In this document: positions 42,780-57,593 of the stretch, piece after piece
Layout: every line of letters starts with the position of its first letter
How positions within the stretch are numbered: the first letter of the stretch is position 1
NCBI GenBank assembly: GCA_963843145.1
Contig: CAWJJC010000003.1
Span: 32,001 to 96,000 of the forward strand
Source: an uncultured delta proteobacterium
Lineage (GTDB): Bacteria > Desulfobacterota > RBG-13-43-22
Length of the DNA: 64,000 nt
Direction: 5' to 3'
Translations under genes and position numbers: made by a program
The notes under the pieces: model-generated
Databases searched by the model: none
What the model was told of the DNA's origin: nothing
The model's input: only the letters and a program-made list of their open reading frames with translations

Positions 42780-42788
42780 GAAGGTCTC

Positions 42789-43237: not shown

Positions 43238-43693
43238 TCAAAAAGTTGCGGTCCTGATAAATTCCTTCAGGGTATCCAGTTGATCCAGGGAGAGCGATTT
43301 TTTTAGCAGCCGCTGTCCAACCAAAATTGGGATTTTTTGATGCAGGGCCAGGGCGATGGCGTCACTGGGGCGGGATTCGGCGCTGATTACTTCCTGGTTC
43401 AACCGATAAACCACCTTGGCGAAATAGGTCTGGTCCTTAAAGTCATAAATCTCGACCCGGACGAATTCGATACCCGACCTATCCAGGATAGATAAATAGA
43501 GTTCATGGGTTAAGGGTCGCGGGGTTTGGACCAGCCCTTTTTCTTTCGCAATGGCCAAAATTTCAGGTTCTCCCACGAACATGATCAAAGAGGATTCGGC
43601 CAGGGCGTGTTCTTTTAAGATGAGCAGGTTGCCGTTTTCCTTTTCACTCTTCAGGATGATTTCGTGGATCGGGATAAAGATGGGATCTTCCAT
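43238..43693 (-). CDS. Bifunctional nuclease (DUF151) family protein
   Basis: PRPLTHEL, TYFAKV, SRPSDAIALAL. Confidence 0.85.
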   Translation of the reverse strand: MEDPIFIPIHEIILKSEKENGNLLILKEHALAESSLIMFVGEPEILAIAKEKGLVQTPRPLTHELYLSILDRSGIEFVRVEIYDFKDQTYFAKVVYRLNQEVISAESRPSDAIALALHQKIPILVGQRLLKKSLSLDQLDTLKEFIRTATF

Positions 43694-43794
43694 AAGGGAT
43701 TCTTTTTTCGTCAGGGGTTTGAAGACGGACTTCTTACCAATTTTTCTTAGGTGATCCGCCGGAAAAGGTCAAGCTTTATTGAAGGAGTCAGACG

Positions 43795-45525
43795 ATGCAT
43801 TCGGGGATAGAATTAAAAGATTGCTTTAAATCATACACTTATGATCAGGAAAAGGCGAATTCCCCCCGGGAAACCATCGAACGGGTGCGTGCCCGGTTAA
43901 AGGAGATTGACCTGGATATCCTGAAAGAAACGGTCCGGATCGATACGGGGCGTCTGGGAATCCCGATTTATATCAGCCGCTGCGGGTCGGACGCGGTACA
44001 GGTTATCGGTACCCAAAAGCAAATGGGGAAGGGGGGGACCGCGGAACAGTCCGAGGCCAGCGCTTTAATGGAACTGGTGGAGCGGTTCAGTTTTTTTTCC
44101 TTTATCCGGGAGAGGGATTTTATCATCGAGACCTGTCAAAACATCAAAGGACAGGCCATCTCCTTTGAATCCCTGGCCCGGTGCTTTTACGATCAATCTT
44201 CGGATCTGGAGCAAATCCGGTCGCTCTGGGAGACTATCCCCCTGGCTTGGGTCTGGGCCCGCAATTTGACCGCCCAGAAAGACGTTTTGGTACCCATCGA
44301 CTGGTTTTACCTCATCCATGAATACAACGGCCCTTCGGCCGGAAACACCCAGGAGGAGGCCATTCTTCAGGGGCTCTGCGAAGTCCTGGAACGCCATGTT
44401 TCCTCGGTGATCAGCCATGATTTCCTGCTCACGCCCTCCATCGATCCGGGATCGGTTACGGACCCGGCGGCCCGGGAACTCATCGAAAAATTTGACCGAC
44501 TAGGCATTAAATTATTTTTGAAGGATTTCAGCCTGGACACGGGGATTCCCACCGTAGGTTCCTTGGCGTATGACCCGACCACCTTCCCGGAAAAAAGCGA
44601 GATCGTTTTTACCGCCGGAACCACTCCCAACCCGGAGAAATCCCTGATTCGGGCGGTAACCGAGATCGCTCAATTAGCAGGCGACTTTGTCAACCGGACT
44701 CAATACCGTCCCACCCTGCCCAAGTTCCAGCGGCTTGAGGAGGCCCAATACGTAATGGCCAACCCCGGAACGGTCTCCATCCAGGAACTGCCGAATTTAA
44801 CCCAAGACAATATCCGGTTGGAAATCGAGGCCTGCGCCCAGGCCTTAAGCCGGGTGGGGCTGGAAGTTTATATCGTGAATACCACGCACCTACGGTTGGG
44901 AATACCGGCGGTCTACACGATCATCCCGGGGGCCCATTTTCGAGATCGTACCCGGCACACCGGTGTATTGTTTCATTTGTCCAAACTGGTTTCCATGATG
45001 GAAGACCCGGGGGAGGCGGTCCGGGAACTCCGGAAGATTCACCAGGTCTTTCCGAACCGATACGAAGTCAATTTCTTCATGGGGTTCGCCCTGGAGCGGA
45101 ATGAACAGCCGGAAGAGGCCCTGGTTCATCTACAGCAAGCCCTTGGCCAACATCCCAGGGATATTGATCTTAGCAGCATCCACTGTCATGTCGGCGTCTG
45201 TCTGAAGGACCTGGAACGTTTTGAGGAGGCTATCGAGTCCTTGAAAAAGGCCAAATCACACAATGATGCCCAAAAAGAGATTTATAACACCCTGGGTTTC
45301 TGCTATTTTAAAATCAAGGAACATCATCAGGCCATCGAGGCCTTTGAACGAGCCATTGAAATTGACCCCGGATCAGGGATCGATTACGCCAATATCGGGT
45401 CCAATTTGCGGGAATTGGGGCATATTCAGGAGGCCATCCATTGTTACCGGATCGCCCTGGAACTGGACCCGACCCTTGATTTTGCCCGAACGAATATTGA
45501 ACGGCTATCGGCAGGGGGGAGTTAA
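43795..45525 (+). CDS. YcaO-family protein with C-terminal TPR repeats
   Basis: YcaO ATP-binding motifs QMGKG, SALMELVERFS, NGPSAGN, GLCEVLERH, RAVTEIAQ; the last ~150 aa are TPRs (YNTLGFCYFK, YANIGSNLRELG). Confidence 0.9.
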   Translation: MHSGIELKDCFKSYTYDQEKANSPRETIERVRARLKEIDLDILKETVRIDTGRLGIPIYISRCGSDAVQVIGTQKQMGKGGTAEQSEASALMELVERFSFFSFIRERDFIIETCQNIKGQAISFESLARCFYDQSSDLEQIRSLWETIPLAWVWARNLTAQKDVLVPIDWFYLIHEYNGPSAGNTQEEAILQGLCEVLERHVSSVISHDFLLTPSIDPGSVTDPAARELIEKFDRLGIKLFLKDFSLDTGIPTVGSLAYDPTTFPEKSEIVFTAGTTPNPEKSLIRAVTEIAQLAGDFVNRTQYRPTLPKFQRLEEAQYVMANPGTVSIQELPNLTQDNIRLEIEACAQALSRVGLEVYIVNTTHLRLGIPAVYTIIPGAHFRDRTRHTGVLFHLSKLVSMMEDPGEAVRELRKIHQVFPNRYEVNFFMGFALERNEQPEEALVHLQQALGQHPRDIDLSSIHCHVGVCLKDLERFEEAIESLKKAKSHNDAQKEIYNTLGFCYFKIKEHHQAIEAFERAIEIDPGSGIDYANIGSNLRELGHIQEAIHCYRIALELDPTLDFARTNIERLSAGGS

Positions 45526-45628
45526 AGCCCCCCTTTGGCCACGCTACGGCAAGGAAGGCGGCGAGGGACATTAACACTCCCCCCTAAGACCCCGCTGACA
45601 TAAATTTACGCAAACGAAAGCCTTTTTT

Positions 45629-46319
45629 ATGTTCGATTATTTATCCGTTTTTGAAAAATACGAAGCCCTGGTCCAGGAGGTGGACCGGGCCATCGGCCGG
45701 GTTCAGGAGACCCATCCGGACCAGATCCGCTGTCACCGGGGTTGTTCGGACTGTTGTTCCGCGGTGTTCGATCTGACCCTGGTCGAGGCCTTTTATTTAA
45801 ATGCGCATTATCATTGGGAATTGCCCGAGGAGCAGCGTCTGGCTATCACCGAGCGCGCGGAGACGGCCGACCGGCAGTTCTATCAGATCAAGCACAAGCT
45901 GCACCGGATGCGGCTGCGGGAAGGGAAAACGGATCAGGAATTGCTTTGGTACCTGGCGGAGCAACGGGTCCGCTGTCCTTTGCTGAACACCGCGGAAGGC
46001 TGCGATCTCTATGCCTATCCGGCCGATCACCTGCCGGGTATACGGGATCCCCACGGCTATTCAGGGGGAACCCCGCATTTGCGAGCTTTCTGGATTTGAA
46101 TCCGGCCACTCTTATCCTACCATCCATCTCGACCGGATCAACGATCGGCTTTTTTCGCTCTCCCGTTATTTGCTGGGGGAAGCCGGGATAGCAGACCCGG
46201 ACCAGAAATTGAACGGGCTGCTGGTCCCGGCCTCCGAGGCCTTAATGACTGAATATCATGAGGATTATTTTCGTCTTTTAGCTAAAAGGAGCCTCCAGGA
46301 TGCCGTTGTCAACGCTTGA
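45629..46319 (+). CDS. YkgJ/CxxxCxxCC cysteine-cluster protein, with a +1 frameshift near 46019
   Basis: CHRGCSDCC, CPLL...CDLY; removing one C in gcctatccggccg restores YRPITCRVYG and joins the two track ORFs. Confidence 0.82.
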
Positions 46320-46650
46320 AGTGGAAACAAGGAAGAAAGCCATTTTTGACCAGATGTCGCCCCGGCAGCAAAAGGTGGTTCTGAGGAAGGGTTACGAACG
46401 CTGGGATCCTTTTGTCGAACCCAATGATCCCATCGATTTGCGCAAAGGTAAAATGAAGGCCACGGCCACTGAATTGGCCAAGGCTTTCTTAGTCAGTTGC
46501 TCGCCGGAGGCCTATAGTAATTCTTTCGGCCAAGGGGTTTGGGAGATCTGCCTGGGATTGGTCAATGACGATGAAAAGTATCGCGGGATGTACGAGTTTG
46601 CCGTCTGGCATGCGCAGCAATTGAAGGCCAGGAACAAAGAGGATCTATAA
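46300..46650 (+). CDS. Conserved-looking hypothetical protein
   Basis: aaaggag RBS; overlaps the previous gene; KKAIFDQMSPR...GYERWDPF.EPNDPIDLR. Confidence 0.75.
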   Translation: MPLSTLEVETRKKAIFDQMSPRQQKVVLRKGYERWDPFVEPNDPIDLRKGKMKATATELAKAFLVSCSPEAYSNSFGQGVWEICLGLVNDDEKYRGMYEFAVWHAQQLKARNKEDL

Positions 46651-46681
46651 ATTCGTAATTCGAAGCACGAAATCCGAAGCG

Positions 46682-47053
46682 TCAACTATTTTTGGCCAAC
46701 AACTTGATAAAAATAAAGGCCCCCCGGCCGGTTTTGTAGGTCCACTTCCCTCCCAGGACCCGGTGTTCGAAGGGGTTATAGCCTTCCAGATGCTTGATCG
46801 AGTAGTCTTGGTCCGCTTCCAGGGCCAGGGCCTTGTCCCAGTCGTCCTGGCTGGCTAAAACCAGGCCTTCCATCAGGGCCGCGCCCAGATTGTTCCCGGT
46901 GGAATCATACACCGCGATGGCTTCACAGGAGCAGGTCCATTTAAAAAAGTCGCCCTGGCTTCTGGACAATTTGGCCGGGGGCCGACCGAAAGCTTGCTGG
47001 CAGAAAGGGCAGCGGGGAATCTCGGATTCCCGTCGTCTGAATTGCTGGTGCAT
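46682..47053 (-). CDS. Hypothetical zinc-ribbon-like protein
   Basis: CPFC ... CSC pairs; sigma-70-like TTGACA/TATTCT upstream on the minus strand. Confidence 0.65.
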   Translation of the reverse strand: MHQQFRRRESEIPRCPFCQQAFGRPPAKLSRSQGDFFKWTCSCEAIAVYDSTGNNLGAALMEGLVLASQDDWDKALALEADQDYSIKHLEGYNPFEHRVLGGKWTYKTGRGAFIFIKLLAKNS

Positions 47054-47147
47054 AGTTTGCCTTTATTGTTTTGTGCTTAGTTGATAGAATAAGAACCGGC
47101 CCCGGCCTTGTCAATCCATTCCGGAAGGCCATAGAAAGGAACGTATT

Positions 47148-47789
47148 ATGAACAAACCCTTGGTGCTGACCCAGACCCAGAACACGGATGACTATATCGA
47201 GGAACTTAAGCTCGCCCTGGCCAAGAATATGGACTGCGGGACCACCCATTACAACCTGGCGGTGGCCCTGGTCAGCAAGGGTTTGTGGGAGGAAGCCAAA
47301 GGAGAATTCAAGGCCGCCATTGAAGGCAGTCCCTCCCTGGCCGAGGCCTATGTGGATTTAGGCGGTCTTTATTTCCAAGAGGGCGATGTGGAGAACTGCA
47401 TCCGTCTTAATCTTGAGGCCATTAAGGTGCGGCCCAAGTTTTCCGTTCCTTATGGAAACGTGGGCTTCGCCTACCTGCAAAAAGGAGACGTGGATGCGGC
47501 CATCGACATCCTGGAAAAAGCGATGGAAATCAACCCCCAATTTGTCCAGGCCCTGACAACCCTGGCCAGCGCGTACTTCATGAAAGGCCGGTTAGAGGAC
47601 AGTATTACGACCTCTTTGAAGGCCCTGGAACTGGCGCCAAATTTTGGGGTCGCCCATAACAACCTGGCCTTAGGCTACCTGGAAAAGGGGGAACACCGGA
47701 AAGCGATCCAGCACCTTGACCTGGCGGCGGCCAACGGGTTCGCCGTTGATCCTGAATTCCTTAAAGAACTGGAACCGTATCGGGAGTAG
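47148..47789 (+). CDS. Tetratricopeptide repeat protein
   Basis: About five TPRs (HYNLAVAL, AYVDLGGLY, YGNVGFAY, LTTLASAY, HNNLALGY); RBS aaagga. Confidence 0.92.
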   Translation: MNKPLVLTQTQNTDDYIEELKLALAKNMDCGTTHYNLAVALVSKGLWEEAKGEFKAAIEGSPSLAEAYVDLGGLYFQEGDVENCIRLNLEAIKVRPKFSVPYGNVGFAYLQKGDVDAAIDILEKAMEINPQFVQALTTLASAYFMKGRLEDSITTSLKALELAPNFGVAHNNLALGYLEKGEHRKAIQHLDLAAANGFAVDPEFLKELEPYRE

Positions 47790-47811
47790 TATGTAAATAG
47801 CCTCAGCCCTG

Positions 47812-47900
47812 GTCATTGCGAGCGGAGCGAAGCAATCCCCCGATTGAGCTTGGGGAGCGTTGTGAGCCAACTGGGGGATTGCTTCGTCACTTCGTTCCTC
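47812..47900. repeat. REP-like palindromic element
   Basis: gtcattgcgagcggagcgaagcaatcccc ... ggggattgcttcgtcacttcgttcctc; cgaagcaatcccc/ggggattgcttcg is a perfect IR. Confidence 0.7.
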
Positions 47901-47995
47901 TAATTTAATAACAGAAACGAGTTCTGAATGTCGAACGCCCAACATCGAATGTCGAAAGGGCGTTTCGTGATGGTACCCGGAGGAACAGACTGCTT

Positions 47996-49150
47996 TTGCC
48001 TTATTCCCCTCCCATCCGCTTCCTGGGGTCCTCCTTATTAGGAAAAATCCCGCTTACGGGACTCGATCCGCAGACGATCATTCCCCTGGAGCGCCCGGGG
48101 ACTGGAAAGGCCTCCGGGTTTCCCCTGGCCGTCTACTTCCAGGCCATCCAGCAGGTTATCGAGAAAGGGGAGTATGGGGGACTGCTGGGCGCATTAAGCA
48201 CCCGATTGGACCGTAAGGTAACCATCCAAGAAATAAAGGAAATCCTGCTTTTTTCCGAAAAGCACGGCAGCGATTACCACCCGGCCCGGGTCGAGGTGTG
48301 CCTCTCTGATCAAGTGATCCCCCTGGTCATGAACGTGGCCCTCACCGACAGGGGGCGGTTGGTTTTAGCCCACGAGTTTGGAGTGTTGGATGAACTCAAC
48401 CGGAAACCTGCCCGGTCTTACCTTCCCCAGGCGTATTTTTGGGATGAAGCGGAGGTCGCTTCCGTTCAAGAGGGCCAACTTTCTCTGCCAATGTACCTGG
48501 CCGAGTGGCTGGAGGGATTTCATGAATTCCACCTTTCCCGGGACCCGGCCGACGGTGAACAGAAGTTGGTCTTGTGGGATTCGGCCCGCTCCGACCATTA
48601 CCTGCCCGACCGGACTGTTAAAGATATCTTTAGAGAAATCGCTTATATAGTAACTTCTTATTATGACCTGGAGACCTTTGCCCAGATCCATCCCTGGCAT
48701 CTGGCGGCCGGGGATTTCATTGCCCGCCTAGCAGAGGACAGCGTCGAGGTCCGGCTGGTGGCTGCCCGGCAGTACGGACCCCTGATCGGTCCCCCGGATT
48801 TGCCCCGAGAGGAAGCCTTGCTGTTTTTCCTGCTGAATTTAAGTGTTCGGATCCGCTTGGATCGGGTGGACGGGGTAGGGGAGGTAGCCTGGGCGACGGA
48901 TCATTGCCTGCGCCCGATGCTTGAAGGCTTCTTCCTAGCCCTGAAGGAAAAATCAGGAAGAGGAGAAATACCCGACGAATTTTTGTCCTATTCCCGGGGC
49001 TACTTGAAATCCCAAACCTTGGAGGACCTGGAGGGGCTTTTCCCCGCCCTGGTGGACTCAGTCAATCCCTCCGCCCCGGACCTTCCGGTTATCCGGATGC
49101 ATTTGGATGAGCATATCAGGGATGTTTTTAGCCAGCTCAGCGCTTTGTGA
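47996..49150 (+). CDS. Hypothetical protein directly upstream of dsrA; possible divergent kinase/phosphotransferase-like fold
   Basis: 384-aa ORF with motif-like blocks EKHGSDYHPA, EWLEGFHEFHLS, PWHLAAGDF, RLDRVDGVG. The start is uncertain and the fold is a guess. Confidence 0.75.
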   Translation: MPYSPPIRFLGSSLLGKIPLTGLDPQTIIPLERPGTGKASGFPLAVYFQAIQQVIEKGEYGGLLGALSTRLDRKVTIQEIKEILLFSEKHGSDYHPARVEVCLSDQVIPLVMNVALTDRGRLVLAHEFGVLDELNRKPARSYLPQAYFWDEAEVASVQEGQLSLPMYLAEWLEGFHEFHLSRDPADGEQKLVLWDSARSDHYLPDRTVKDIFREIAYIVTSYYDLETFAQIHPWHLAAGDFIARLAEDSVEVRLVAARQYGPLIGPPDLPREEALLFFLLNLSVRIRLDRVDGVGEVAWATDHCLRPMLEGFFLALKEKSGRGEIPDEFLSYSRGYLKSQTLEDLEGLFPALVDSVNPSAPDLPVIRMHLDEHIRDVFSQLSAL

Positions 49151-49262
49151 TCCGGAATGGAAACCCCCCGTCTTTAAGGGGGGGGTTGGGTCTAATTCCG
49201 CCCTCTTTGGATGGAAAAGGGTATTCCACCATTGGTAACCGTTGCGCAATCTTGTTTTTTTG

Positions 49263-49292
49263 TTGACAAAAAGGGAGATATGGGACTATAGA
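49263..49292 (+). promoter_or_regulatory. Sigma-70-type promoter for the dsr operon
   Basis: TTGACA-N18-TATAGA about 250 bp upstream of dsrA. Confidence 0.55.
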
Positions 49293-49539: not shown

Positions 49540-50850
49540 ATGAAACACAAAACACCCCTGCTGGATCAGTTAGAAAGCGGGCCCTGGCCAAGCTTTGTTT
49601 CGGACATCAAGCGGGAGGCCGAAGCGCGGGCCAAGAACGAAAAAGGCGTGGATTTTCAGATCCCGGTCGAGGTTTGTGATGATATTCTGGGCGTGATGGA
49701 GCTGACTTACGAGCAGAAGGAGACCCACTGGAAACACGGCGGTATCGTCGGAGTTTTCGGGTATGGCGGCGGGGTTATCGGCCGTTATTGCGACCAGCCG
49801 GAGATGTTTCCCGGCGTGGCCCACTTCCACACCATTCGGGTCAATCAACCGGGCGGGAAATATTATTCCACAGACTATTTAAAGAAGTTATGCGACATGT
49901 GGGATAGGCGGGGCAGCGGGCTGACCAACATGCACGGTTCCACCGGGGACATCATCCTCTTGGGAACCTATACCCACCAACTGGAAGAGGTCTTTTATGA
50001 ATTAACCCATGACTTTAACCAGGACCTGGGCGGGTCGGGCTCTAACCTGCGGACCCCTTCGGATTGCCTGGGCATGTCCCGCTGTGAGTACGCCTGCTAC
50101 GATACCATGGCCCTGTGTTATGATCTGACCAATGAGTATCAGGATTTTCTACACCGGCCGGCCTTCCCCTATAAGTTCAAGTTTAAATTCGACGGTTGCC
50201 CCAATTGCTGCGTGGCCTCCATTGCCCGATCCGATATGTCCTTTATCGGGACCTGGCGGGACGACATCCGGATTGACCAGAAGGCGGTCCAGGCCTACGT
50301 GGGCGGGGAAATTCCGCCCAACGCCGGCGCCTTCAAGGGAAGGGATTGGGGGGCTTTTGATATCAACGCCGAGGTCATCGATCTCTGCCCCACCAAATGC
50401 ATGTCCTGGGACGGTAAGCAACTGAAAATCTACACCCCGGAATGCACCCGTTGCATGCATTGCATCAATGTCATGCCCCAGGCCCTGCGGATCGGTGAAG
50501 ACCGCGGCGTGGCCATCCTTTGCGGGGCCAAGGCCCCCATCCTGGACGGCGCCCAGATGGGCTCGCTGCTGGTGCCCTTCATGAAGGTGGAGCCGCCTTA
50601 TACCGAGATCAAAGATCTGATTGAGAAGATCTGGGATTGGTGGATGGAAGAAGGGAAAAACCGGGAACGACTGGGCGAGCTGATGAAACGTCAGGGTTTC
50701 CAAAAACTCCTGGAGGCCACCGGTCTGGAACCGATTCCCCAAATGGTCAAGGAACCCCGGACCAATCCCTATATTTTCTGGCGGGCGGATGAAGTTCCCG
50801 GCGGGTTTGAACGCGACATTAATGAATATCGCAAGCACCATCTGCGTTAG
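49540..50850 (+). CDS. dsrA: Dissimilatory sulfite reductase alpha subunit
   Basis: TPLLDQLESGPWPSFV, THWKHGGIVGVFGYGGGVIGRY, siroheme-[4Fe-4S] motif CLGMSRC...GCPNCC, CTRCMHC. Confidence 0.99.
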   Translation: MKHKTPLLDQLESGPWPSFVSDIKREAEARAKNEKGVDFQIPVEVCDDILGVMELTYEQKETHWKHGGIVGVFGYGGGVIGRYCDQPEMFPGVAHFHTIRVNQPGGKYYSTDYLKKLCDMWDRRGSGLTNMHGSTGDIILLGTYTHQLEEVFYELTHDFNQDLGGSGSNLRTPSDCLGMSRCEYACYDTMALCYDLTNEYQDFLHRPAFPYKFKFKFDGCPNCCVASIARSDMSFIGTWRDDIRIDQKAVQAYVGGEIPPNAGAFKGRDWGAFDINAEVIDLCPTKCMSWDGKQLKIYTPECTRCMHCINVMPQALRIGEDRGVAILCGAKAPILDGAQMGSLLVPFMKVEPPYTEIKDLIEKIWDWWMEEGKNRERLGELMKRQGFQKLLEATGLEPIPQMVKEPRTNPYIFWRADEVPGGFERDINEYRKHHLR

Positions 50851-50863
50851 GAGGTGAGCACTC

Positions 50864-52006
50864 ATGCCATACGATCCGAAAGAACCTTTAAAAGACAGAA
50901 TCACGGACCTGGGACCGAGACATTACGAAGAGTTTCTTCCCCAGGTGATCAAAAACAACTACGGTAAATGGGTTTCCCATGAAATCCTGGAGCCCGGGGT
51001 ACTGGTGCACCTGGCTGAAAACGGCGACAAGGTCTTCACCGTCCGCGTCGGCGGAGCCCGGCTGATGAGCATTTCCCATATCCGGGAGATCTGCGAAATC
51101 GCCGACAAGCACTGCGACGGGCATCTGCGCTTCACCACCCGGAACAACATCGAGTTCATGGTGGATGACCTGGCCAAGGTCGAACCCCTGAAAAAAGAAC
51201 TGCTCGGCCGCAAGCAGCCCGGCGGGGGCTTCAAGTTTCCCATCGGCGGGACCGGCGCCGGAATTACCAACATCATTCACACCCAGGGCTGGATCCACTG
51301 CCACACCCCGGCCACCGACGCCTCCGGCGTCGTCAAGGCGGTCATGGACGAACTGTTCGAGGAATTTACCCACATGCGCATGCCGGCCCAGGTGCGGATC
51401 TCCCTGGCCTGCTGCCTCAACATGTGCGGGGCCGTGCATTGCTCGGACATCGCCATCTTGGGCTATCACCGCAAGCCGCCCATGGTCGATTGGGAAGTGA
51501 TCGACAAGGTTTGCGAGATTCCTTTGGCTATTGCCGCCTGCCCGACCGCGGCCATTAAACCGGGCAAGTTCACCCGGGAAGACGGGACCACGGCCCAGGG
51601 CGTGCAGGTGAATGCCGACCGCTGCATGTTTTGCGGTAACTGCTACACCATGTGCCCGGCCCTGCCTTTGGCCGACGACGCGGGCGACGGCATCGTGATC
51701 ATGGCCGGCGGCAAGGTCTCCAACCGGATCAGCCCGCCCAAGTTCTCCAAGGTGGTGGTGGCTTTCTTGCCCAATACCCCGCCCCGCTGGAAGGAGACCG
51801 TTGACTGCATCAAAAATCTGGTGGAAGTCTACGCCAAGGACGCCCGAAAGTACGAGCGGGTGGGCGATTGGGCCGAGCGGATCGGCTGGGAGCGGTTCTT
51901 CGAAAAGACCGGCCTGCCTTTCACCCATCACCTGATCGATGACTTTCGGGATCCGGCTTATTACACCTGGAGGCAGACCAGTCAGTACCGCTTCACTAAT
52001 TCCTAA
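50864..52006 (+). CDS. dsrB: Dissimilatory sulfite reductase beta subunit
   Basis: [62 protein letters not shown]. Confidence 0.99.
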
Positions 52007-52027
52007 ACTTAACTCCATACCTAATTT

Positions 52028-52070
52028 CCCCTCCCTCTTCCTCCCCCCGGGAAAAGGAGGGGGGAGGGGA
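52028..52070 (+). repeat. GC-rich hairpin between dsrB and dsrD
   Basis: A C/T-rich arm cccctccctcttcct pairs with the G/A-rich arm aggaggggggaggga. Confidence 0.5.
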
Positions 52071-52129
52071 CAGCCAGCGGAGATAGTTTTTCCTTCCCTT
52101 GGGCTGGAAACCAAGAAATGAGGGACATC

Positions 52130-52366
52130 ATGGACGACGCCGAAGCCAAAAAGTACATTGCCGAAGAACTGGAAAAGAAGAAGGGTAAGTCGAAATTCTA
52201 TCTAAAGGATTTTTACGCGATGCTGCCCGACCGGAAGGCCAGGGAGGTGAACAAACTGGTCAATAATATGGTTATGGAAGGGGTCCTGGAGTATTGGTCC
52301 AGCGGGAGCACCACCTTGTACGGGTTGAAAGGTGCCGGAAAGCAGCAGTCCGCCGAAGGGGAGTAA
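52130..52366 (+). CDS. dsrD: Dissimilatory sulfite reductase D protein
   Basis: KSKFYLKDF, LEYWSSGSTTLYGL; located after dsrB. Confidence 0.96.
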   Translation: MDDAEAKKYIAEELEKKKGKSKFYLKDFYAMLPDRKAREVNKLVNNMVMEGVLEYWSSGSTTLYGLKGAGKQQSAEGE

Positions 52367-52422: not shown

Positions 52423-53829
52423 ATGAATTCGCCCCGATTGGTAATGGCCGCCCTCCGTGGGGGAGCCGGGAAGACCGTGCTGACCATGGGCCTTCTGGCC
52501 GCCTGGCACGATCGGGGGATCAAGGTAGTACCTTTTAAGAAGGGTCCGGATTATATCGACGCCGGGTGGCTGGCCAAGGCGGCCGGCCACCCCTGCTATA
52601 ATCTGGACCCTTTTTTAATGGGGAAAAAGACCCTGGTGGCTTCATTCAAAAAAAGGTTCCTGGAAGGGGAGCTGGCCTTGATTGAAGGCAACCGGGGGGT
52701 TTTCGATGGGATCGACGCCCAGGGCACCTACAGCACGGCCCAGTTGGCCAAGTGGCTCAAGGCCCCGGTGGTCCTGATCCTCGACTGTACCAAGGCCACC
52801 CGGACCGTGGGGGCCATGGTTTTAGGCTGCCTGGCCTTTGATCCCGACCTACCCCTTAAAGGGGTAATTTTAAACCATATCGTCCGCAGCCGGCACGAGG
52901 CGGTGATCCGCAGGACCATTGAACAGATCTGCGACCTTCCCATTCTAGGGGTGATCCCCCGGATGGGCCCCGGCCGTCTGCCTGAAAGGCATCTGGGTCT
53001 GGTGCCTTTTCAAGAACACCCCGAGGTGGAGCAGACCGTACAATTCACCCGGGGAATGGCTGAAAAATACCTGGATTTGACCGGCTTGCAGGCCCTGGCC
53101 GGCCAGGCGCCACCGTTGCTTTCGGAGGCCTCCCCTTGGACTGAAAAGGGTCGGAAGGGTAGGGAAGGCCGTCCCCGGATCGGGGTGATTCAGGATACGG
53201 CTTTTCAGTTCTACTACCCGGAAAATCTGGAGGCTTTAGAAAACGCCGGGGCCGAGTTGGTTTTTCTGAACGCCCTTTCCGGGCAATTTCCGCCGGGCCT
53301 GCAAGCCCTGTACATCGGCGGCGGTTTCCCCGAAACCCAGGCCCCGCAGCTTTCCCAAAATGAACCTTTTCGACGAGACCTGGCCGCGGCCATCGAAGCC
53401 GGTCTCCCGGTTTATGCCGAGTGCGGCGGTTTGATGTACCTGGGGAAAACGCTGGTTTATCGGGGTGACGCCTTTCCCATGGTGGGGGTTTTTCCGTTTA
53501 CCTTTGGTTTGGAAAGAAAGCCCCAGGGGCATGGCTATACTCGGATCAAGGTGGTGGAAACCAATCCCTATTTCCCGGTGGGGACGACCTTGAAGGGCCA
53601 TGAATTCCATTATTCCCGGGTGATCGAGGGCGATTTGAAGGTCTGGAAAATGGCTTTTCAGATGACCAAGGGGGAGGGCTTGGATGGCCGCCGGGATGGG
53701 GTGGTCTATAAGAATACCCTGGCCACCTATACCCATCTCCATGCTCTGGGAAGTCCGGAATGGGCCCGGGGGTTGGTAGCCCGGGCCGGGGAAACCCGGA
53801 GGAAGAAAAGCGGGAGAGCCCGCAATTGA
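52423..53829 (+). CDS. dsrN: Siroheme amidase (cobyrinate a,c-diamide synthase family) DsrN
   Basis: GGAGKT, FKKGPDYID, IEGNRG, PERHLGL, AFQFYYPEN, YAECGGLMYL, GHEFHYS; inside the dsr cluster. Confidence 0.93.
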   Translation: MNSPRLVMAALRGGAGKTVLTMGLLAAWHDRGIKVVPFKKGPDYIDAGWLAKAAGHPCYNLDPFLMGKKTLVASFKKRFLEGELALIEGNRGVFDGIDAQGTYSTAQLAKWLKAPVVLILDCTKATRTVGAMVLGCLAFDPDLPLKGVILNHIVRSRHEAVIRRTIEQICDLPILGVIPRMGPGRLPERHLGLVPFQEHPEVEQTVQFTRGMAEKYLDLTGLQALAGQAPPLLSEASPWTEKGRKGREGRPRIGVIQDTAFQFYYPENLEALENAGAELVFLNALSGQFPPGLQALYIGGGFPETQAPQLSQNEPFRRDLAAAIEAGLPVYAECGGLMYLGKTLVYRGDAFPMVGVFPFTFGLERKPQGHGYTRIKVVETNPYFPVGTTLKGHEFHYSRVIEGDLKVWKMAFQMTKGEGLDGRRDGVVYKNTLATYTHLHALGSPEWARGLVARAGETRRKKSGRARN

Positions 53830-53943: not shown

Positions 53944-54261
53944 ATGGCAAACATTGAATTTAGGGGAACAACCTTTAGTGTGGATGAAGACGGATTCATC
54001 GACGATTTCAATAGCTGGACCCGTGACTGGGTGGATTATGTAAAGGAATCCGAGGGAATTAAGGAACTGACCGAAGAACACTGGAAGATTATCAATATCC
54101 TGCAGGACTATTACAAGAAAAACGGGATCGCCCCCATGGTGCGGATCCTTTCCAAGGTGACCGGTTTCAAACTGAAATACATCTATGAATTGTTTCCGTC
54201 CGGACCGGGTAAAGGGGCCTGTAAGATGGCGGGACTGCCCAAGCCCACCGGTTGCGTGTAA
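53944..54261 (+). CDS. dsrC: Sulfur carrier DsrC
   Basis: VDEDGF, HWKII, APMVRIL, LFPSGPGKGACKMAGLPKPTGCV with both C-terminal Cys; AT-rich upstream region with TTGACA at 53865. Confidence 0.98.
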   Translation: MANIEFRGTTFSVDEDGFIDDFNSWTRDWVDYVKESEGIKELTEEHWKIINILQDYYKKNGIAPMVRILSKVTGFKLKYIYELFPSGPGKGACKMAGLPKPTGCV

Positions 54262-54351: not shown

Positions 54352-54903
54352 ATGGACCTGAATAAATTATTAATAGAAAAAAAGCCCGCTTTCCTTAAAC
54401 GGTGGTTTACTCTCATCGTGGAAACCTACCCCGATGAGTCCACGCGTTTTCTAAAATATCAAAAAGATCGTTTTGCCAATCCGGTCGGTCATGCCTTTTC
54501 GCAGGCCATCGACCGACTATATGAAGAGGTTGTTTCCGGGGTGGATCCCCAACGGGCCGCTCCGGCCTTGGATCAGATCATACGGATTCGAGCCATACAA
54601 AACTTTTCCCCCTCCCAGGCGGTCGCCTTCGTCCTCTTTTTGAAAACCGTCATCCGCGAAGCCCTGGAGGAGGATATTAGACGATTCGGGATCAAGGAAG
54701 AACTGCTGGTCATCGAGACCCGTATTGACCAATTGGCTTTGCTGGCCTTTGATCAGTATGTAGCCTGCCGGGAAAAGCTCTACGATTTAAAGGCCAACGA
54801 ACTTCGCCGGCAGACCTATCGATTGTTGCAGCGGGCCAAAATTATCGGGGAGCCCCCCGCCTCCGACCTGAACTCCGAAGAAAGCAACGAGGGAAAGGCT
54901 TAA
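54352..54903 (+). CDS. dsrT: DsrT (RsbRD N-terminal-like)
   Basis: DRFANPVG, IIRIRAIQNFSPSQAVAF, AFDQYVACREKLY; precedes dsrM. Confidence 0.92.
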   Translation: MDLNKLLIEKKPAFLKRWFTLIVETYPDESTRFLKYQKDRFANPVGHAFSQAIDRLYEEVVSGVDPQRAAPALDQIIRIRAIQNFSPSQAVAFVLFLKTVIREALEEDIRRFGIKEELLVIETRIDQLALLAFDQYVACREKLYDLKANELRRQTYRLLQRAKIIGEPPASDLNSEESNEGKA

Positions 54904-54924
54904 TAAGAAGGAGAGGAAAGGTCC

Positions 54925-55953
54925 ATGAATTTCATACTCAGCTTAATCATAACACTGGTGATTGTCCACCTTTTGGTCGTAATCCCCCTGGTAGGGATAC
55001 TGGCGGCCAATTTGCAGTTCCTGTTCGGGGTCATCATCCCCTATGCGGCGGTGCTGGTCTTTTTGATCGGGATGATCTGGCGGGTGACCGACTGGGCCAA
55101 ATCCGCGGTTCCTTTTCGGATTCCCACCACGGCCGGACAGCAGAAATCGCTGCCCTGGATCAAGGACAGCAAATTAGACAACCCCACCACTACAGCCGGG
55201 GTGGTGGGCCGGATGCTCCTGGAAATCTTGCTCTTTCGATCCCTGTTCCGGAACACCCGGATGGAATACCGCGAAGGTCCCCGGGTGACCTATGAATGGG
55301 AAAAATGGTTGTGGCTGTTCGCGTTGGTTTTTCATTATGCCTTTCTGGTGGTTTTGCTCAGGCATCTTCGTTTTTTTACCGATCCCGTGCCGGGCTTCGT
55401 TCAACTTCTGGAATCGCTGGACGGGTTTATGCAGATGGGGATCGCCCCCCTGGCCGGATTGGGACTGCCGGTGCTGCAGCTCAGCGGAGTAGTCCTGCCG
55501 GCGGCCGTCACTTTTCTTTTGCTTCGCCGTCTGCTGATCCCTAATGTCCGTTACATTTCGCTGCCGGCTGATTTCTTCCCCCTGTTGCTGATCCTGGGCA
55601 TCGCCACCACCGGCATCCTGATGCGTTATATACTCAAATTGGACATCGTCGGCGTCAAGGAGTTGATGATCGGCCTGGTGACCTTCAGGCCTGTGGTGCC
55701 CCCGGGGATCGGGGTCCTTTTCTACATCCATCTTTTCCTGGTCAGCACCCTTTTTGCCTATTTCCCCTTCAGCAAGCTGGTCCATCTGGGCGGCATCTTT
55801 CTCAGCCCGACCCGGAACCTGGCCAACAATAACCGGATGGTTCGGCACATCAATCCCTGGAGCTATCCGGTGAAGGTCCACACCTATGAAGCCTACGAGG
55901 ATGAATTCCGCGAAAAAATGATTGAGGCTGGAATCCCAGTGGAAAAGGAGTAA
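54925..55953 (+). CDS. dsrM: DsrMKJOP membrane cytochrome b subunit DsrM
   Basis: PFRIPTT.GQQKSL, FRSLFRN, FHY...RHLR, YFPFSKLVH, SPTRN, RHINPW. Confidence 0.97.
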   Translation: MNFILSLIITLVIVHLLVVIPLVGILAANLQFLFGVIIPYAAVLVFLIGMIWRVTDWAKSAVPFRIPTTAGQQKSLPWIKDSKLDNPTTTAGVVGRMLLEILLFRSLFRNTRMEYREGPRVTYEWEKWLWLFALVFHYAFLVVLLRHLRFFTDPVPGFVQLLESLDGFMQMGIAPLAGLGLPVLQLSGVVLPAAVTFLLLRRLLIPNVRYISLPADFFPLLLILGIATTGILMRYILKLDIVGVKELMIGLVTFRPVVPPGIGVLFYIHLFLVSTLFAYFPFSKLVHLGGIFLSPTRNLANNNRMVRHINPWSYPVKVHTYEAYEDEFREKMIEAGIPVEKE

Positions 55954-55955
55954 TC

Positions 55956-57593
55956 ATGGCCTTTAAGAATATACCCAAGCCCAATGAATTAGCCGATATT
56001 GGTCATAAACCGCCCTTGATGAAGGGCTGGCTGGATACGCCGGTGGATATTCGAACCGGGGTATTTTGCTACGCCGGCCAGCCTAAGAATCTGGAGGTGG
56101 TGGGCCTGCCCAATCCCCGGAAATGGGCTCCTTTAGACGAGGACTGGCAACTGCCCGACAACTGGAAAGAGATCTTTCTGGAGGGGATGCGGGAACGATT
56201 GAGCAAATACCGAACCTTTCATGTCTTTATGGATATCTGCGTGCGCTGCGGTGCCTGCGCGGACAAATGTCATTTTTTCATCGGCTCCGGGGATCCCAAG
56301 AACATGCCGGTCTTGCGGGCCGAACTGCTGCGCTCCATCTACCGCCGGGAATTCACTTTTGCCGGCAAAATGTTGGGGAAGATGGCCGGGGCCCGGGACT
56401 TGACCCCCGAAGTGCTCAAGGAAATCTGGTATTATCTGTTTCAGTGCACCGAATGCCGCCGTTGTTCCCTCTTCTGCCCCTATGGGATCGATACCGCCGA
56501 GATCACGATTATCGGGCGGGAATTGCTCAACCTGCTGGGTTTGAACATCGACTGGATCGCCGGGCCGGTGGCCAACTGTTACCGCAAGGGGAATCATCTG
56601 GGGATCGAGCCCCATGCCTTTAAGGACATGATTGAGTTTTTTCTGGATGAAGTCGAGGGGGTCTGCGGAATCCGACCGGAGCCGACCTTTAACCGCAAAG
56701 GGGCGGAAATTCTCTTCGTCACCCCCTCAGGCGATGTCTTTGCCGATCCCGGCACCTATACCGCCATGGGGTACCTGATGCTCTTCCACCAACTGGGCCT
56801 GGATTACACCTGGAGCACCTACGCTTCCGAAGGAGGGAATTTCGGGTTTTTTACCTCCATGGAAATGGCCAAACGGCTCAATTACAAGATTTATGCCGAG
56901 GCCAAACGGCTGGGGGTCAAGTGGATCCTGGGCGGTGAATGCGGCCATATGTGGCGGGTGGTCAACCAGTACATGGATACCTACAACGGTCCGGCGGATT
57001 TTCTGGAAGAGCCCGTTTCCCCGATCACCGGGACTAAATTCGAAAATGCCAAGTCCACCAAAATGGTCCATATCGTTGAGTTCACGGCTGATCTGATCCG
57101 GAACGGTAAGCTCAAGTTGGATGCCAGCCGCAACGACAATCTGCGGGTCACCTTCCACGACTCCTGCAACACCGCCCGGGGGATGGGAATTTTGGAGGAG
57201 CCCCGCTATGTCCTCAAACACGTCTGTAATAATTTTTTTGAAATGCCGGAAAACACGATTCGAGAGCAAACCTTCTGCTGCGGCAGCGGCTCGGGACTGA
57301 ACGCCGGGGAAGATATGGAGTTGCGCATGCGGGGCGGGTTTCCCCGGGCCAACGCCGTCCGTTTTGTCCACGATCGATTCGGGGTCAATATGCTGGCCAA
57401 TATCTGCGCCATCGATCGGGCGGCCTTGTCTACATCCATGGAATACTGGGTGCCGGAAGTCGGGGTTACCGGGCTGCACGAGATGGTGGCTAATGCGCTG
57501 ATCATGGATGGCGAGGGGGAGCGCACCACCGACCTGCGCGGGGAACCCTTGCCCGGATTCGAAGAGAAGGAGGAGGGCGAAGAAGATGCATGA
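55956..57593 (+). CDS. dsrK: DsrK (HdrD-like Fe-S/CCG subunit)
   Basis: CVRCGACADKC, CTECRRCSLFCPYGID, SEGGNFG, GECGHMWR, FHDSCN, FCCGSGSG, ICAID. Confidence 0.98.
   Translation: MAFKNIPKPNELADIGHKPPLMKGWLDTPVDIRTGVFCYAGQPKNLEVVGLPNPRKWAPLDEDWQLPDNWKEIFLEGMRERLSKYRTFHVFMDICVRCGACADKCHFFIGSGDPKNMPVLRAELLRSIYRREFTFAGKMLGKMAGARDLTPEVLKEIWYYLFQCTECRRCSLFCPYGIDTAEITIIGRELLNLLGLNIDWIAGPVANCYRKGNHLGIEPHAFKDMIEFFLDEVEGVCGIRPEPTFNRKGAEILFVTPSGDVFADPGTYTAMGYLMLFHQLGLDYTWSTYASEGGNFGFFTSMEMAKRLNYKIYAEAKRLGVKWILGGECGHMWRVVNQYMDTYNGPADFLEEPVSPITGTKFENAKSTKMVHIVEFTADLIRNGKLKLDASRNDNLRVTFHDSCNTARGMGILEEPRYVLKHVCNNFFEMPENTIREQTFCCGSGSGLNAGEDMELRMRGGFPRANAVRFVHDRFGVNMLANICAIDRAALSTSMEYWVPEVGVTGLHEMVANALIMDGEGERTTDLRGEPLPGFEEKEEGEEDA

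What the first reader, a model, noticed from the sequence alone, without database searches (positions are those of the whole stretch)
43795..49150. Stand-alone YcaO-TPR enzyme cluster immediately upstream of dsrAB: candidate Dsr-associated protein-modification system
Seen: a YcaO domain with intact ATP-binding motifs is fused to TPRs instead of ending in a PxP tail. It is followed by a YkgJ-type Cys-cluster protein, a small hypothetical protein, an all-TPR protein and a 384-aa unknown, which (apart from one small opposite-strand gene) point into dsrABD. I see no precursor peptide, E1/ThiF partner, SagB dehydrogenase, TfuA, protease or exporter nearby. Established: YcaO enzymes phosphorylate backbone amides to form azolines, amidines or thioamides, and the methanogen YcaO-TfuA pair thioamidates the folded enzyme McrA. 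Inference: the TPRs could recruit a folded protein substrate such as DsrA, DsrB or DsrC, with locally produced sulfide as nucleophile. The cluster could instead be a DsrAB assembly system.
Basis: inference. Interest (0 to 1): 0.72.

Follow-up and report, generated by a model that had tools for sequence, protein, structure and literature searches.

The report
Orphan YcaO enzyme beside sulfite-reductase genes
An ATP-using protein-modifying enzyme found almost only in sulfate-reducing bacteria sits here beside their sulfite-reductase genes; in many relatives its gene lies next to that of the sulfur carrier DsrC, which makes its unknown target testable.

Summary

(1) The gene at 43795-45525 is an intact YcaO-TPR fusion with a complete ATP motif. 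It is the genome's only YcaO, and the genome has no TfuA. It matches the description of D. vulgaris DVU2210, which has a published molybdate phenotype and an unknown target.

In 401 genomes of the phylum, 137 carry the fusion. Of these, 133 have dsrA and 136 have dsrA or aprA.

It lies next to dsrAB only in the window's own family. In 11 of 40 other families looked at, it lies directly beside dsrC. Elsewhere it lies beside LarE or a NIL-ferredoxin.

(2) The genes at 45629-49150 are a YkgJ-type protein, a 116-aa protein, a 123-aa protein, a TPR protein and a 384-aa protein. They recur around dsrAB in at least 12 families without the YcaO. The 384-aa protein has an aminoglycoside/choline-kinase-like fold.

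Best reading: a sulfur-inserting (thioamide-type), protein-directed YcaO coupled to DsrC, joined in this lineage to a separate dsrAB accessory module. The chemistry and the target are inferred, not shown.

The scan noted this YcaO-TPR family before, on other genomes.

The parts
43795..45525 (+). YcaO-TPR fusion protein, 576 aa. It is of the DVU2210 type: a stand-alone, ATP-dependent amide-activating enzyme with a C-terminal TPR domain.
   Evidence: Pfam YcaO E 8.2e-75 plus TPR families. The ATP motif is intact. It is the only YcaO in the genome and there is no TfuA. Full-length homologues occur in 137 of 401 genomes of the phylum.
45629..46319 (+). YkgJ-type CxxCxxCC (putative Zn/Fe-chelating) protein. 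In this assembly it is read in two frames because of one extra base at about 46017.
   Evidence: The window piece scores 19.2 bits for PF03692, under the cut-off of 23. The intact 229-aa relative L044:11815-12504 scores 31 bits. The DNA alignment shows the extra A. One public contig lacks a base at 46019.
46300..46650 (+). 116-aa protein with no known family; a member of the dsrAB-linked module.
   Evidence: No Pfam or NCBIfam hit. Homologues occur in 17 of 20 other genomes of the family. In G059 a homologue lies upstream of TPR-h384-dsrA.
46682..47053 (-). 123-aa Cys-rich protein on the opposite strand. In other families it is the N-terminal part of a longer protein that carries DVU0298-family HEAT repeats.
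   Evidence: No family hit in the window. L125:3932-5020 and L127:6284-7390 carry it fused to HEAT_2 and NF045662.
47148..47789 (+). All-TPR protein, 213 aa; a member of the dsrAB-linked module.
   Evidence: TPR Pfam families. Orthologues at 47-76% identity lie beside h384 or dsrD in 13 of 20 fetched h384 loci, and also in L124, L125 and L127.
47996..49150 (+). 384-aa protein with an aminoglycoside/choline-kinase-like (protein-kinase-like) fold; the most widely dsrAB-linked gene of the module.
   Evidence: No Pfam or NCBIfam family. AF2 model with pLDDT 93.6 and pTM 0.92. VIA Z 13.1 to 8agy, 12.9 to 4dbx and 12.7 to 2olc. 847 representatives in the 50%-identity library. Found in 65 of 401 genomes, and at least 38 of those copies lie within about 6 kb of dsrA.
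49540..52366 (+). dsrA, dsrB and dsrD (dissimilatory sulfite reductase and its activator).
   Evidence: TIGR02064 at 613 bits, TIGR02066 at 489 bits, PF08679 E 4.7e-30.
52423..53829 (+). dsrN-type a,c-diamide synthase.
   Evidence: NF002204 and TIGR00379 above their cut-offs. The name dsrN comes from the gene's context and is recalled.
53944..54261 (+). dsrC, 8.4 kb downstream of the YcaO-TPR gene, with the canonical C-terminal arm ...GACKMAGLPKPTGCV.
   Evidence: PF04358 E 3.4e-37. Alignment A3. It is the best of 3 DsrC-family genes in the genome.
54352..57593 (+). RsbRD_N-domain protein, then DsrM-like and DsrK-like proteins (the rest of the dsr locus).
   Evidence: PF14361, PF02665, and Fer4 plus CCG domains.

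Best explanation
The region is a lineage-specific join of two separate units.

Unit 1 (43795-45525) is a stand-alone YcaO-TPR enzyme. It fits the family described for D. vulgaris DVU2210. This family is confined, as far as sampled, to Desulfobacterota that carry the dissimilatory sulfate-reduction genes. My reading of how it works:
- It uses ATP to activate a backbone amide of a folded cellular protein, not a RiPP precursor.
- It replaces the oxygen with sulfur, giving a thioamide.
- The TPR domain serves for partner binding or dimerisation.
- Its functional partner is DsrC, either as the modified substrate (the flexible C-terminal arm) or as a TusE-like sulfur relay.

Unit 2 (45629-49150) comprises a YkgJ-type metal-binding protein, a 116-aa protein, a 123-aa protein, a TPR protein and a kinase-fold protein. 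It is an independent accessory module of dsrAB, most likely serving maturation or regulation of the reductase.

Shown: gene content, intact motifs, distribution, and the neighbourhood patterns. Inferred: the protein substrate, the thioamide chemistry, the role of DsrC, and the role of unit 2.
For: - Enzyme identity: Pfam YcaO E 8.2e-75 with an intact, invariant ATP motif. The best curated relative is the McrA-thioamidation YcaO (TIGR03266, 140.9 bits). The best solved relative is MJ1094/6pe3 (E 2.3e-48), ahead of the azoline enzymes TruD, LynD and MusD.
- Not a RiPP enzyme: it is a single conserved gene in at least 555 species records with changing neighbours, and there is no TfuA or second YcaO in the genome.
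- Tie to sulfate reduction: of 401 sampled genomes, 137 carry it. 133 of those have dsrA, 125 have aprA, and 136 have one or the other. Of the 185 genomes that have neither dsrA nor aprA, 1 carries it.
- Tie to DsrC: dsrC lies directly adjacent on the same strand in 13 loci from 11 of 40 families. It is downstream in 9 families and upstream in 2. These are canonical DsrCs with both cysteines. In 3 of 5 genomes checked, the adjacent dsrC is the only DsrC-family gene. On a tree of 132 family members these loci fall in 3 clades; at least 3 changes are forced, and 0 of 500 label shuffles scored as low.
- Sulfur theme: in other lineages the adjacent gene is LarE (TIGR00268, 311-318 bits, 14 loci) or a NIL-ferredoxin (4 loci).
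- Precedent: E. coli YcaO thioamidates folded uL16 without TfuA and has a TPR-like domain (PMC13063428, abstract and passages).
- Genetics: loss of DVU2210, or S195R in its ATP motif, changes molybdate sensitivity. DVU2210 is also mutated during sulfate-free syntrophic evolution (PMC7774982 and PMC8319347, passages).
- Unit 2 is separate: the same genes surround dsrAB in G059, G039, G027 and others while the YcaO-TPR lies elsewhere. h384 is within about 6 kb of dsrA in at least 38 of 65 genomes, across 12 families.
Against: - The delta-DVU2210 mutant grows like wild type by sulfate respiration, and its authors conclude there is no direct role in sulfate reduction (PMC7774982).
- 72 of 205 dsrA-positive genomes lack a full-length copy, so it is not a core Dsr component.
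- dsrC adjacency is seen in 13 of 132 loci. It is seen in none of the 80 closest relatives fetched by the search for related loci. It could trace to as few as 2-3 ancestral arrangements.
- In the window itself dsrC is 8.4 kb away.
- The LarE and NIL-ferredoxin neighbours fit DsrC as a sulfur donor at least as well as DsrC as a substrate.
- No thioamide or other backbone change on any Dsr protein is reported in the papers I could search. I did not re-examine the solved structures.
- Kinship: the co-occurrence counts are not independent, because whole families share both traits.
- I did not see the DVU2210 sequence itself. I could compare only a printed 20-residue motif, of which 15 of 20 residues are identical to the window.
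Confidence: 0.42

Rival explanations
1. DsrC (a TusE-family protein), LarE and the NIL-ferredoxin are alternative sulfur donors for the YcaO-TPR. The protein that gets modified is something else that the TPR domain recognises, for example another sulfate-reduction enzyme or a ribosomal protein.
For: - The three recurrent neighbours are all sulfur-handling proteins: DsrC PF04358, LarE TIGR00268 and NIL plus Fer4.
- Other thioamide-forming YcaOs use a separate sulfur-delivery partner, and the donor for E. coli YcaO is still unknown (PMC13063428 passages).
Against: - Sulfate reducers live in millimolar sulfide, so a dedicated donor seems less necessary (inference).
- DsrC in sulfate reducers is known as the DsrAB substrate rather than a biosynthetic relay (recalled).
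- No candidate target emerges from the neighbourhoods.
Confidence: 0.2
2. The enzyme does not modify a protein. It activates a small oxyanion or metabolite with ATP, as Zane et al. proposed for molybdate (a futile ATP cycle). Its link to sulfate reducers would then reflect sulfate or sulfite handling.
For: - Deleting DVU2210, or mutating its ATP motif, relieves molybdate toxicity in a delta-sat strain (PMC7774982).
- Its distribution tracks aprA as well as dsrA: 125 of 137 carriers have aprA.
Against: - All characterised YcaO enzymes act on peptide or protein backbone amides (recalled; abstract of PMC13063428).
- A conserved 170-residue TPR domain argues for a protein partner.
- The molybdate effect can also be explained as an anion competing with hydrosulfide at a thioamidating site (inference).
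Confidence: 0.1
3. One reading: all six genes (YcaO-TPR, YkgJ, the 116-aa protein, the 123-aa protein, the TPR protein and the 384-aa protein) form one YcaO-centred modification system aimed at DsrAB.
For: - In the window's own family the genes are contiguous and mostly co-directional, upstream of dsrABD.
- 50 of 65 genomes with the kinase-fold gene also carry the YcaO-TPR.
Against: - 87 of 137 YcaO-TPR carriers lack the kinase-fold gene, and 15 of 65 kinase-fold carriers lack the YcaO-TPR.
- In G059, G039, G058 and the families, the five-gene set occurs without an adjacent YcaO.
- Within the family itself the join is broken in G009 and in the genus relative L044.
Confidence: 0.08
4. A RiPP pathway with an unrecognised small precursor gene nearby.
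For: YcaO enzymes are best known from RiPP clusters, and small ORFs cannot be excluded by inspection.
Against: - There is no E1-like, dehydrogenase, protease or exporter gene in 39730-57593.
- Neighbourhoods differ from lineage to lineage while the enzyme stays 40-60% identical over its full length.
- There is no PxPxP tail in 0 of 132 members.
Confidence: 0.03

Closest known systems
DVU2210 of Desulfovibrio (Nitratidesulfovibrio) vulgaris Hildenborough, 'YcaO-like, TPR domain protein' (Zane, Wall and De Leon 2020, PMC7774982)
   Same: - Same two-domain architecture and same phylum.
- Same ATP motif: 15 of 20 printed residues are identical to the window.
- Desulfovibrio species carry full-length homologues that are 40-44% identical to the window protein.
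- It is a stand-alone gene of unknown target.
   Different: - DVU2210 is not reported to lie beside dsr genes, whereas here the gene abuts the dsrAB locus.
- I could not compare the full DVU2210 sequence.
- The published work concerns molybdate sensitivity, not a protein modification.
Methanogen YcaO that makes thioglycine in McrA (TIGR03266; MJ1094, PDB 6pe3)
   Same: - It is the best curated and best solved relative of the YcaO domain.
- It acts on a folded metabolic enzyme of an anaerobic energy pathway.
- The habitat is rich in sulfide.
   Different: - The score of 140.9 bits is far under the 365-bit cut-off.
- The methanogen enzyme has no TPR domain.
- There is no TfuA here.
- The host is a bacterium without Mcr (the absence of Mcr was not tested).
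E. coli YcaO, which thioamidates ribosomal protein uL16 (Rice et al. 2026, PMC13063428)
   Same: - It is a stand-alone YcaO without TfuA that recognises the tertiary structure of a cellular protein.
- It has a C-terminal TPR-like domain (passages).
   Different: - Only residues 158-295 align by profile.
- NF040716 scores 68 bits against a cut-off of 700.
- The distribution differs: Pseudomonadota versus sulfate reducers.
Azoline-forming cyclodehydratases (SagD family TIGR03604; LynD, TruD, MusD)
   Same: They share the YcaO ATP-binding fold.
   Different: - The score is 111.4 bits against a cut-off of 219.
- There is no E1-like partner or fused domain, no PxPxP tail, and no precursor or dehydrogenase.
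Aminoglycoside / choline / methylthioribose kinase-type phosphotransferases (compared with the 384-aa protein)
   Same: - The fold matches: Z 13.1 (rmsd 4.8, 237 residues aligned) to 8agy, Z 12.9 to 4dbx and Z 12.7 to 2olc.
- K89, D240 and D289 are invariant in 60 sequences.
   Different: - No Pfam or NCBIfam family matches, and identity is only 7-13%.
- The catalytic-loop Asn is not evident in the sequence.
- Substrate unknown.
- The genomic context, beside dsrAB, is new as far as my searches show.

Membership tests
YcaO superfamily (PF02624) | Match to the YcaO ATP/Mg-binding domain above the curated score | tested here: met
   252.6 bits against a cut-off of 25.7, covering residues 77-380.
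YcaO superfamily (PF02624) | ATP-binding motif S-x6-7-E-x3-Q-x3-E-x2-E-R (as quoted in PMC7774982) | tested here: met
   S181, E188, Q192, E196, E199 and R200 are present. The last five are invariant in 37 homologues.
DVU2210-type YcaO-TPR of sulfate reducers | YcaO domain followed by a C-terminal TPR domain in one protein of about 575-590 aa | tested here: met
   The Pfam architecture fits. Full-length alignment over residues 1-573 is found in 137 genomes. Homologues from Desulfovibrio are named 'YcaO-like family protein'.
DVU2210-type YcaO-TPR of sulfate reducers | Direct sequence orthology to DVU2210 | tested here: inconclusive
   Only the 20-residue motif printed in the paper could be compared: 15 of 20 residues are identical to the window and 17 of 20 to L036. 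The full sequence is not held by any tool I used.
McrA-glycine thioamidation YcaO (TIGR03266) | Score above the equivalog cut-off | tested here: not met
   140.9 bits against a cut-off of 365.
McrA-glycine thioamidation YcaO (TIGR03266) | TfuA partner in the genome (present in many members, not all) | tested here: not met
   PF07812 finds no match in G000, which is 97.9% complete.
TOMM cyclodehydratase, SagD family (TIGR03604) | Score above cut-off; E1-like partner; proline-rich C-terminus | tested here: not met
   111.4 bits against a cut-off of 219.25. No ThiF/E1 domain occurs among the 17 neighbouring ORFs. No PxPxP occurs in 0 of 132 C-termini. That the PxPxP feature defines this family is recalled.
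E. coli-type YcaO (NF040716) | Score above the equivalog cut-off | tested here: not met
   68 bits against a cut-off of 700, covering only residues 158-293.
YkgJ / CxxCxxCC family (PF03692), for 45629-46319 | Match above the gathering score | tested here: inconclusive
   The frameshifted window piece scores 19.2 bits, under the cut-off of 23. Intact orthologues score 31.0 and 27.6 bits.
APH / choline-kinase-like phosphotransferases, for 47996-49150 | Protein-kinase-like two-lobe fold | tested here: met
   Z 13.1, 12.9 and 12.7 to 8agy, 4dbx and 2olc, with 213-253 residues aligned. Foldseek gives E 4e-5 to protein kinases.
APH / choline-kinase-like phosphotransferases, for 47996-49150 | Sequence-family membership and complete catalytic motifs | tested here: inconclusive
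   No Pfam or NCBIfam hit at E <= 0.01. K89, D240 and D289 are invariant. Their equivalence to the kinase Lys and Asp residues was not mapped residue by residue.

The most novel reading that the evidence does not exclude
The YcaO-TPR of sulfate reducers works directly with DsrC. Either it puts a backbone thioamide (or a related ATP-dependent amide modification) on DsrC's C-terminal swinging arm, or it draws sulfur from DsrC to thioamidate another enzyme of the pathway. Either case would be the first dedicated post-translational modification enzyme of dissimilatory sulfate reduction. It would also be a third instance, after McrA and uL16, of YcaO thioamidation of a folded cellular protein. Separately, dsrAB would have a previously unnoticed accessory module built around a kinase-fold protein.
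Probability: 0.3. Interest if true: 0.85.

Novelty: new variant of a known kind. Interest (0 to 1): 0.62.

Why it matters
- Dissimilatory sulfite reduction is one of the oldest and most important energy metabolisms on a global scale, and DsrC is its central sulfur carrier.
- An orphan ATP-dependent amide-modifying enzyme occurs almost only in organisms with this pathway and is repeatedly encoded beside dsrC. That gives a concrete hypothesis that can be tested cheaply.
- The D. vulgaris deletion and point-mutant strains already exist, so comparative mass spectrometry of DsrC and the other pathway proteins would decide it.
- The result would also explain the puzzling molybdate phenotype of DVU2210.
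- The second result stands on its own: a kinase-fold protein, a TPR protein, a YkgJ-type protein and a HEAT-repeat protein recur around dsrAB in at least 12 families. This points to unstudied maturation or control of the reductase.
- The module could also serve as an extra marker when reading dsr loci in metagenomes.

Tried and rejected
- Complex prediction of YcaO-TPR (alignment A2) with DsrC (alignment A3) returned 'no answer', score 0.00 in two runs. It is no evidence either way.
- The look-up of sequencing runs listed no RNA holder, so expression and co-transcription could not be examined.
- Read laying covered only parts of 45500-46500, using low-depth contigs.
- The promoter and terminator scans of 43200-49700 gave counts at or below those of shuffled sequence: 3 against 4.3, and 13 against 10.3. 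No operon boundaries can be drawn from them.
- Literature searches:
  - 'YcaO' with 'DsrC': 0 papers.
  - 'YcaO' with 'sulfate-reducing' and 'thioamide': 0 papers.
  - 'DVU0298': 1 paper, seen as a listing only.
  - Searches for descriptions of genes upstream of dsrA gave nothing on the module. The one exception is a figure legend in PMC6018796 that mentions four unnamed syntenic unknown genes in acidobacterial dsr loci. I could not compare those genes.
  - The library holds open-access papers only.
- I first thought aprA was missing from the own genome. It is present, but in six frame pieces.
- I considered that the co-occurrence might track aprA rather than dsrA. The data cannot separate the two.
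- Distribution outside the phylum could not be tested with genome searches. The protein atlas lists almost only Thermodesulfobacteriota clusters and one Myxococcota cluster, which is a lead only.
- One row, L046:13645-14863, was dropped from the h384 alignment because it contained a stop codon.

Full report
**What is there**

The window is G000:C3:32001-96000 of a 5.35-Mb, 32-contig assembly. ORF listing and Pfam/NCBIfam scans give this gene order on the + strand unless noted:

- YcaO-TPR (43795-45525)
- a YkgJ-type CxxCxxCC protein (45629-46319, read in two frames)
- a 116-aa protein (46300-46650)
- a 123-aa Cys-rich protein on the - strand (46682-47053)
- an all-TPR protein (47148-47789)
- a 384-aa protein (47996-49150)
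- dsrA, dsrB, dsrD, a dsrN-type amidase, dsrC (53944-54261), an RsbRD_N protein, and DsrM- and DsrK-like proteins

The YcaO domain scores E 8.2e-75. The ATP motif quoted in PMC7774982 is complete: S181, E188, Q192, E196, E199, R200. Its last five residues are invariant in 37 homologues. No family member has a PxPxP tail (0 of 132). The assembly holds one YcaO and no TfuA.

**The YkgJ frameshift**

- In relatives the YkgJ gene is one ORF of about 215-230 aa.
- The window has one extra A at 46017.
- One short public contig lacks a base at 46019 (depth 2).
- The same assembly has aprA in six frame pieces.
- I therefore read the frameshift as more likely an assembly error than a pseudogene, but this is not settled.

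**Where the YcaO-TPR occurs**

- More than 5,500 clusters match it at E <= 1e-20. The best-scoring are named only 'YcaO-like family protein' or carry the automatic E. coli-derived label.
- The search for related loci confirmed 555 of 599 candidate stretches in species-representative genomes. The 80 loci kept are all Deltaproteobacteria/Thermodesulfobacteriota by record title.
- In an even sample of 401 genomes of the phylum, 137 have a full-length copy at E <= 1e-100.
- Of those 137, 133 have dsrA at E <= 1e-50 and 125 have aprA at E <= 1e-100. 136 have one or the other.
- The four carriers without dsrA are G138 (61% complete), G215, G386 and G398. Three of these four have aprA.
- Conversely, 72 of 205 dsrA-positive genomes lack a full-length copy, and 192 genomes have neither the YcaO-TPR nor dsrA.
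- Among genomes with both dsrA and aprA, 122 of 168 carry it. Among dsrA-only genomes, 11 of 37 carry it.
- These genomes are kin, and whole families share both traits (for example f10 12/12 and 12/12; f25 0/7 and 7/7). The Fisher value therefore overstates the association. The direction is still clear: the gene is essentially restricted to organisms with the dissimilatory pathway, and it is not universal among them.

**Neighbourhoods of the YcaO-TPR**

I compared 132 loci.

- The window's arrangement, next to the five genes and dsrAB, is confined to its own family: 6 of the 9 rows of that clade. Within the family it is broken in G009 (L041) and in the genus relative L044.
- None of the roughly 120 loci of other families has dsrAB within the fetched flanks.
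- dsrC lies directly beside the gene on the same strand in 13 loci from 11 of the 40 family codes looked at.
  - Downstream: G051, G060, G089, G123, G130, G185, G214, G271 and G298.
  - Upstream: G037, G078, G291 and G363.
- These are canonical DsrCs ending ...CKMAGLPKPTGCV.
- In G123, G291 and G037 the adjacent dsrC is the only DsrC-family gene of the genome. In G363 and G060 it is the better-scoring of two.
- On a FastTree of the 132 proteins the dsrC-adjacent rows form three clades (7 of 8, 2 of 3 and 4 of 4 rows). At least 3 changes are forced by well-supported branches, and 0 of 500 label shuffles scored as low.
- The tree has long branches and was made by the quick method, so the number of independent origins (2 to 5) is uncertain.
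- None of the 80 closest relatives shows the dsrC adjacency.
- Other recurrent immediate neighbours are a LarE sulfur transferase (TIGR00268 at 311 and 318 bits against a cut-off of 150; 14 loci, mostly one clade) and a NIL-domain ferredoxin (4 loci).
- Elsewhere the neighbours are housekeeping genes that differ by lineage: ABC ATPases, RNase D and Smr, and a dynamin-like protein.

**What is published**

- Zane, Wall and De Leon 2020 (PMC7774982; abstract and passages) describe DVU2210 of D. vulgaris Hildenborough as a 'YcaO-like, TPR domain protein'.
  - Its deletion, or S195R in the ATP motif, makes a delta-sat strain resistant to 3 mM molybdate.
  - The single deletion grows like wild type on sulfate.
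  - The native target is stated to be unknown.
- Turkarslan et al. 2021 (PMC8319347, passages) list DVU2210 among the genes that are highly mutated during sulfate-free syntrophic evolution. The same study reports recurrent missense changes in DsrC.
- Rice et al. 2026 (PMC13063428; abstract and passages) show that E. coli YcaO thioamidates folded uL16 without TfuA. They note that it has a 150-residue TPR domain and that its sulfur donor is unknown.
- I could compare the window only with the 20-residue motif printed for DVU2210 (15 of 20 identical). Full-length homologues from Desulfovibrio species exist and are 40-44% identical to the window protein.
- No paper in the searchable library holds both 'YcaO' and 'DsrC'.

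**How it most likely works**

- By curated models the YcaO domain is nearest to the McrA-thioamidating enzyme (TIGR03266, 140.9 bits), but far under that model's cut-off of 365. By solved structures it is nearest to MJ1094.
- It fails the cut-offs of the SagD and E. coli equivalogs as well. It is thus a distinct clade.
- Several features argue for a cellular protein substrate rather than a RiPP:
  - it is conserved as a single gene;
  - it has a TPR domain;
  - RiPP genes are absent;
  - uL16 and McrA provide precedents.
- All three recurrent neighbours handle sulfur (DsrC/TusE family, LarE, NIL-ferredoxin). That points to sulfur insertion, that is, a thioamide.
- The data cannot tell whether DsrC is the substrate or the sulfur relay. 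Its disordered, invariant C-terminal arm would suit a YcaO active site.
- A thioamidating site that binds hydrosulfide could be uncoupled by molybdate or thiomolybdate. That would fit the published phenotype. This step is pure inference.

**The other five genes**

They are not partners of the YcaO in any general sense.

- In G059 the order YkgJ, 116-aa protein, TPR, 384-aa protein, dsrABDN is the same as in the window, but the YcaO-TPR lies on another contig.
- In G039 the genes lie shuffled inside the dsr locus.
- In G058 four of them cluster 230 kb from dsrA.
- A profile of the 384-aa protein finds it in 65 of 401 genomes, and 61 of those have dsrA.
- From the coordinates, at least 38 copies lie within about 6 kb of dsrA on the same contig, in 12 family codes. 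13 copies do not, or are on another contig. For 10 the dsrA position was not listed. 4 genomes have no dsrA.
- Twenty further loci show three recurring layouts:
  - dsrABD-TPR-YkgJ facing h384-(123-aa/HEAT);
  - TPR-h384-dsrABD-dsrN;
  - h384 divergent from dsrA, with dsrN beside it.
- 13 of those 20 loci include dsrA.
- 87 of 137 YcaO-TPR carriers lack the 384-aa gene, and 15 of 65 carriers of that gene lack the YcaO-TPR.

The 384-aa protein:
- It has no Pfam or NCBIfam family.
- It has 847 representatives in the 50%-identity library.
- It folds with high confidence (pLDDT 93.6) into an aminoglycoside/choline-kinase-like fold (Z 13.1 to 8agy, 12.9 to 4dbx, 12.7 to 2olc).
- K89, D240 and D289 are invariant.

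In other families the 123-aa protein is fused to DVU0298-family HEAT repeats.

A metal-binding YkgJ protein, two repeat scaffolds and a kinase-fold enzyme kept beside dsrAB and dsrN suggest maturation or control of the reductase. Nothing here tests that.

**Verdict**

- It is wrong in treating the region as one system, and dsrAB synteny is not general.
- The gene family is already in print as DVU2210, with its function unknown.
- As far as my searches reach, three things are new: the quantified restriction to dsr/apr genomes, the recurrent dsrC, LarE and NIL-ferredoxin adjacency, and the separate dsrAB-linked kinase-fold module.
- Earlier notes of this scan on other genomes (e1-5126830, e1-4376376) reached compatible readings. 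I reached the DVU2210 paper and the two-module view from my own calls before reading them.

Noticed in passing
G000:C14:53502-55285 (outside the window): The genome's aprA matches TIGR02061 in six consecutive pieces in different frames. The same-genus genome G003 also shows no intact aprA and has a dsrA split in two. Either these assemblies are rich in indel errors, or aprA is decaying in this genus.
   Followed up: partly
window 46010-46025: One extra A at 46017 splits the YkgJ-type gene. A 151-base public contig covering 45891-46042 lacks one base at 46019 (depth 2).
   Followed up: yes
L094:9165-9989, L039:5152-5991 and 12 further loci: A LarE-family sacrificial sulfur transferase gene (TIGR00268, 311-318 bits) lies directly upstream of the YcaO-TPR gene on the same strand, often overlapping it. 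Most cases fall in one clade of the tree.
   Followed up: partly
L034:8336-8776, L156, L159, L168: A NIL-domain plus 2x[4Fe-4S] ferredoxin gene lies directly beside the YcaO-TPR gene in three family codes (f31, f39, f102). In L034 a tRNA 2-thiouridylase (MnmA-type) gene lies divergently on the other side.
   Followed up: no
G058:C1:1585907-1587058, G122:C1:1525739-1526896, G322:C1:69695-70849 and others: Some genomes carry a second, shorter YcaO paralogue of about 485-520 aa. It is about 40% identical over residues 7-385 and lacks the full TPR domain. In G122 and G322 it lies only about 8.5 kb from the YcaO-TPR gene.
   Followed up: no
L125:3932-5020, L127:6284-7390: In other families the 123-aa Cys-rich protein of the window is the N-terminal part of a protein of about 365 aa. 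The rest of that protein is a DVU0298-family HEAT-repeat domain (NF045662, 170-186 bits).
   Followed up: partly
window 54352-54903: An RsbRD_N-domain protein sits between dsrC and the dsrM-like gene, in the position where DsrT is usually drawn. The name is recalled and was not tested.
   Followed up: no
window 39730-43693: A sigma-54 response regulator, a 411-aa unknown protein, a UPF0047 protein and a bifunctional-nuclease-domain protein lie upstream of the YcaO-TPR gene. They are conserved there across the family (L042, L043, L045, L048).
   Followed up: no
G018:C8 and G018:C25: One family genome holds two copies of the whole stretch from YcaO-TPR to dsrA, on two contigs. This is either a duplication or two strains binned together.
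   Followed up: no
L037:6502-8877: In G039 a B12-binding radical SAM gene lies between the YcaO-TPR gene and a DsrC paralogue.
   Followed up: no
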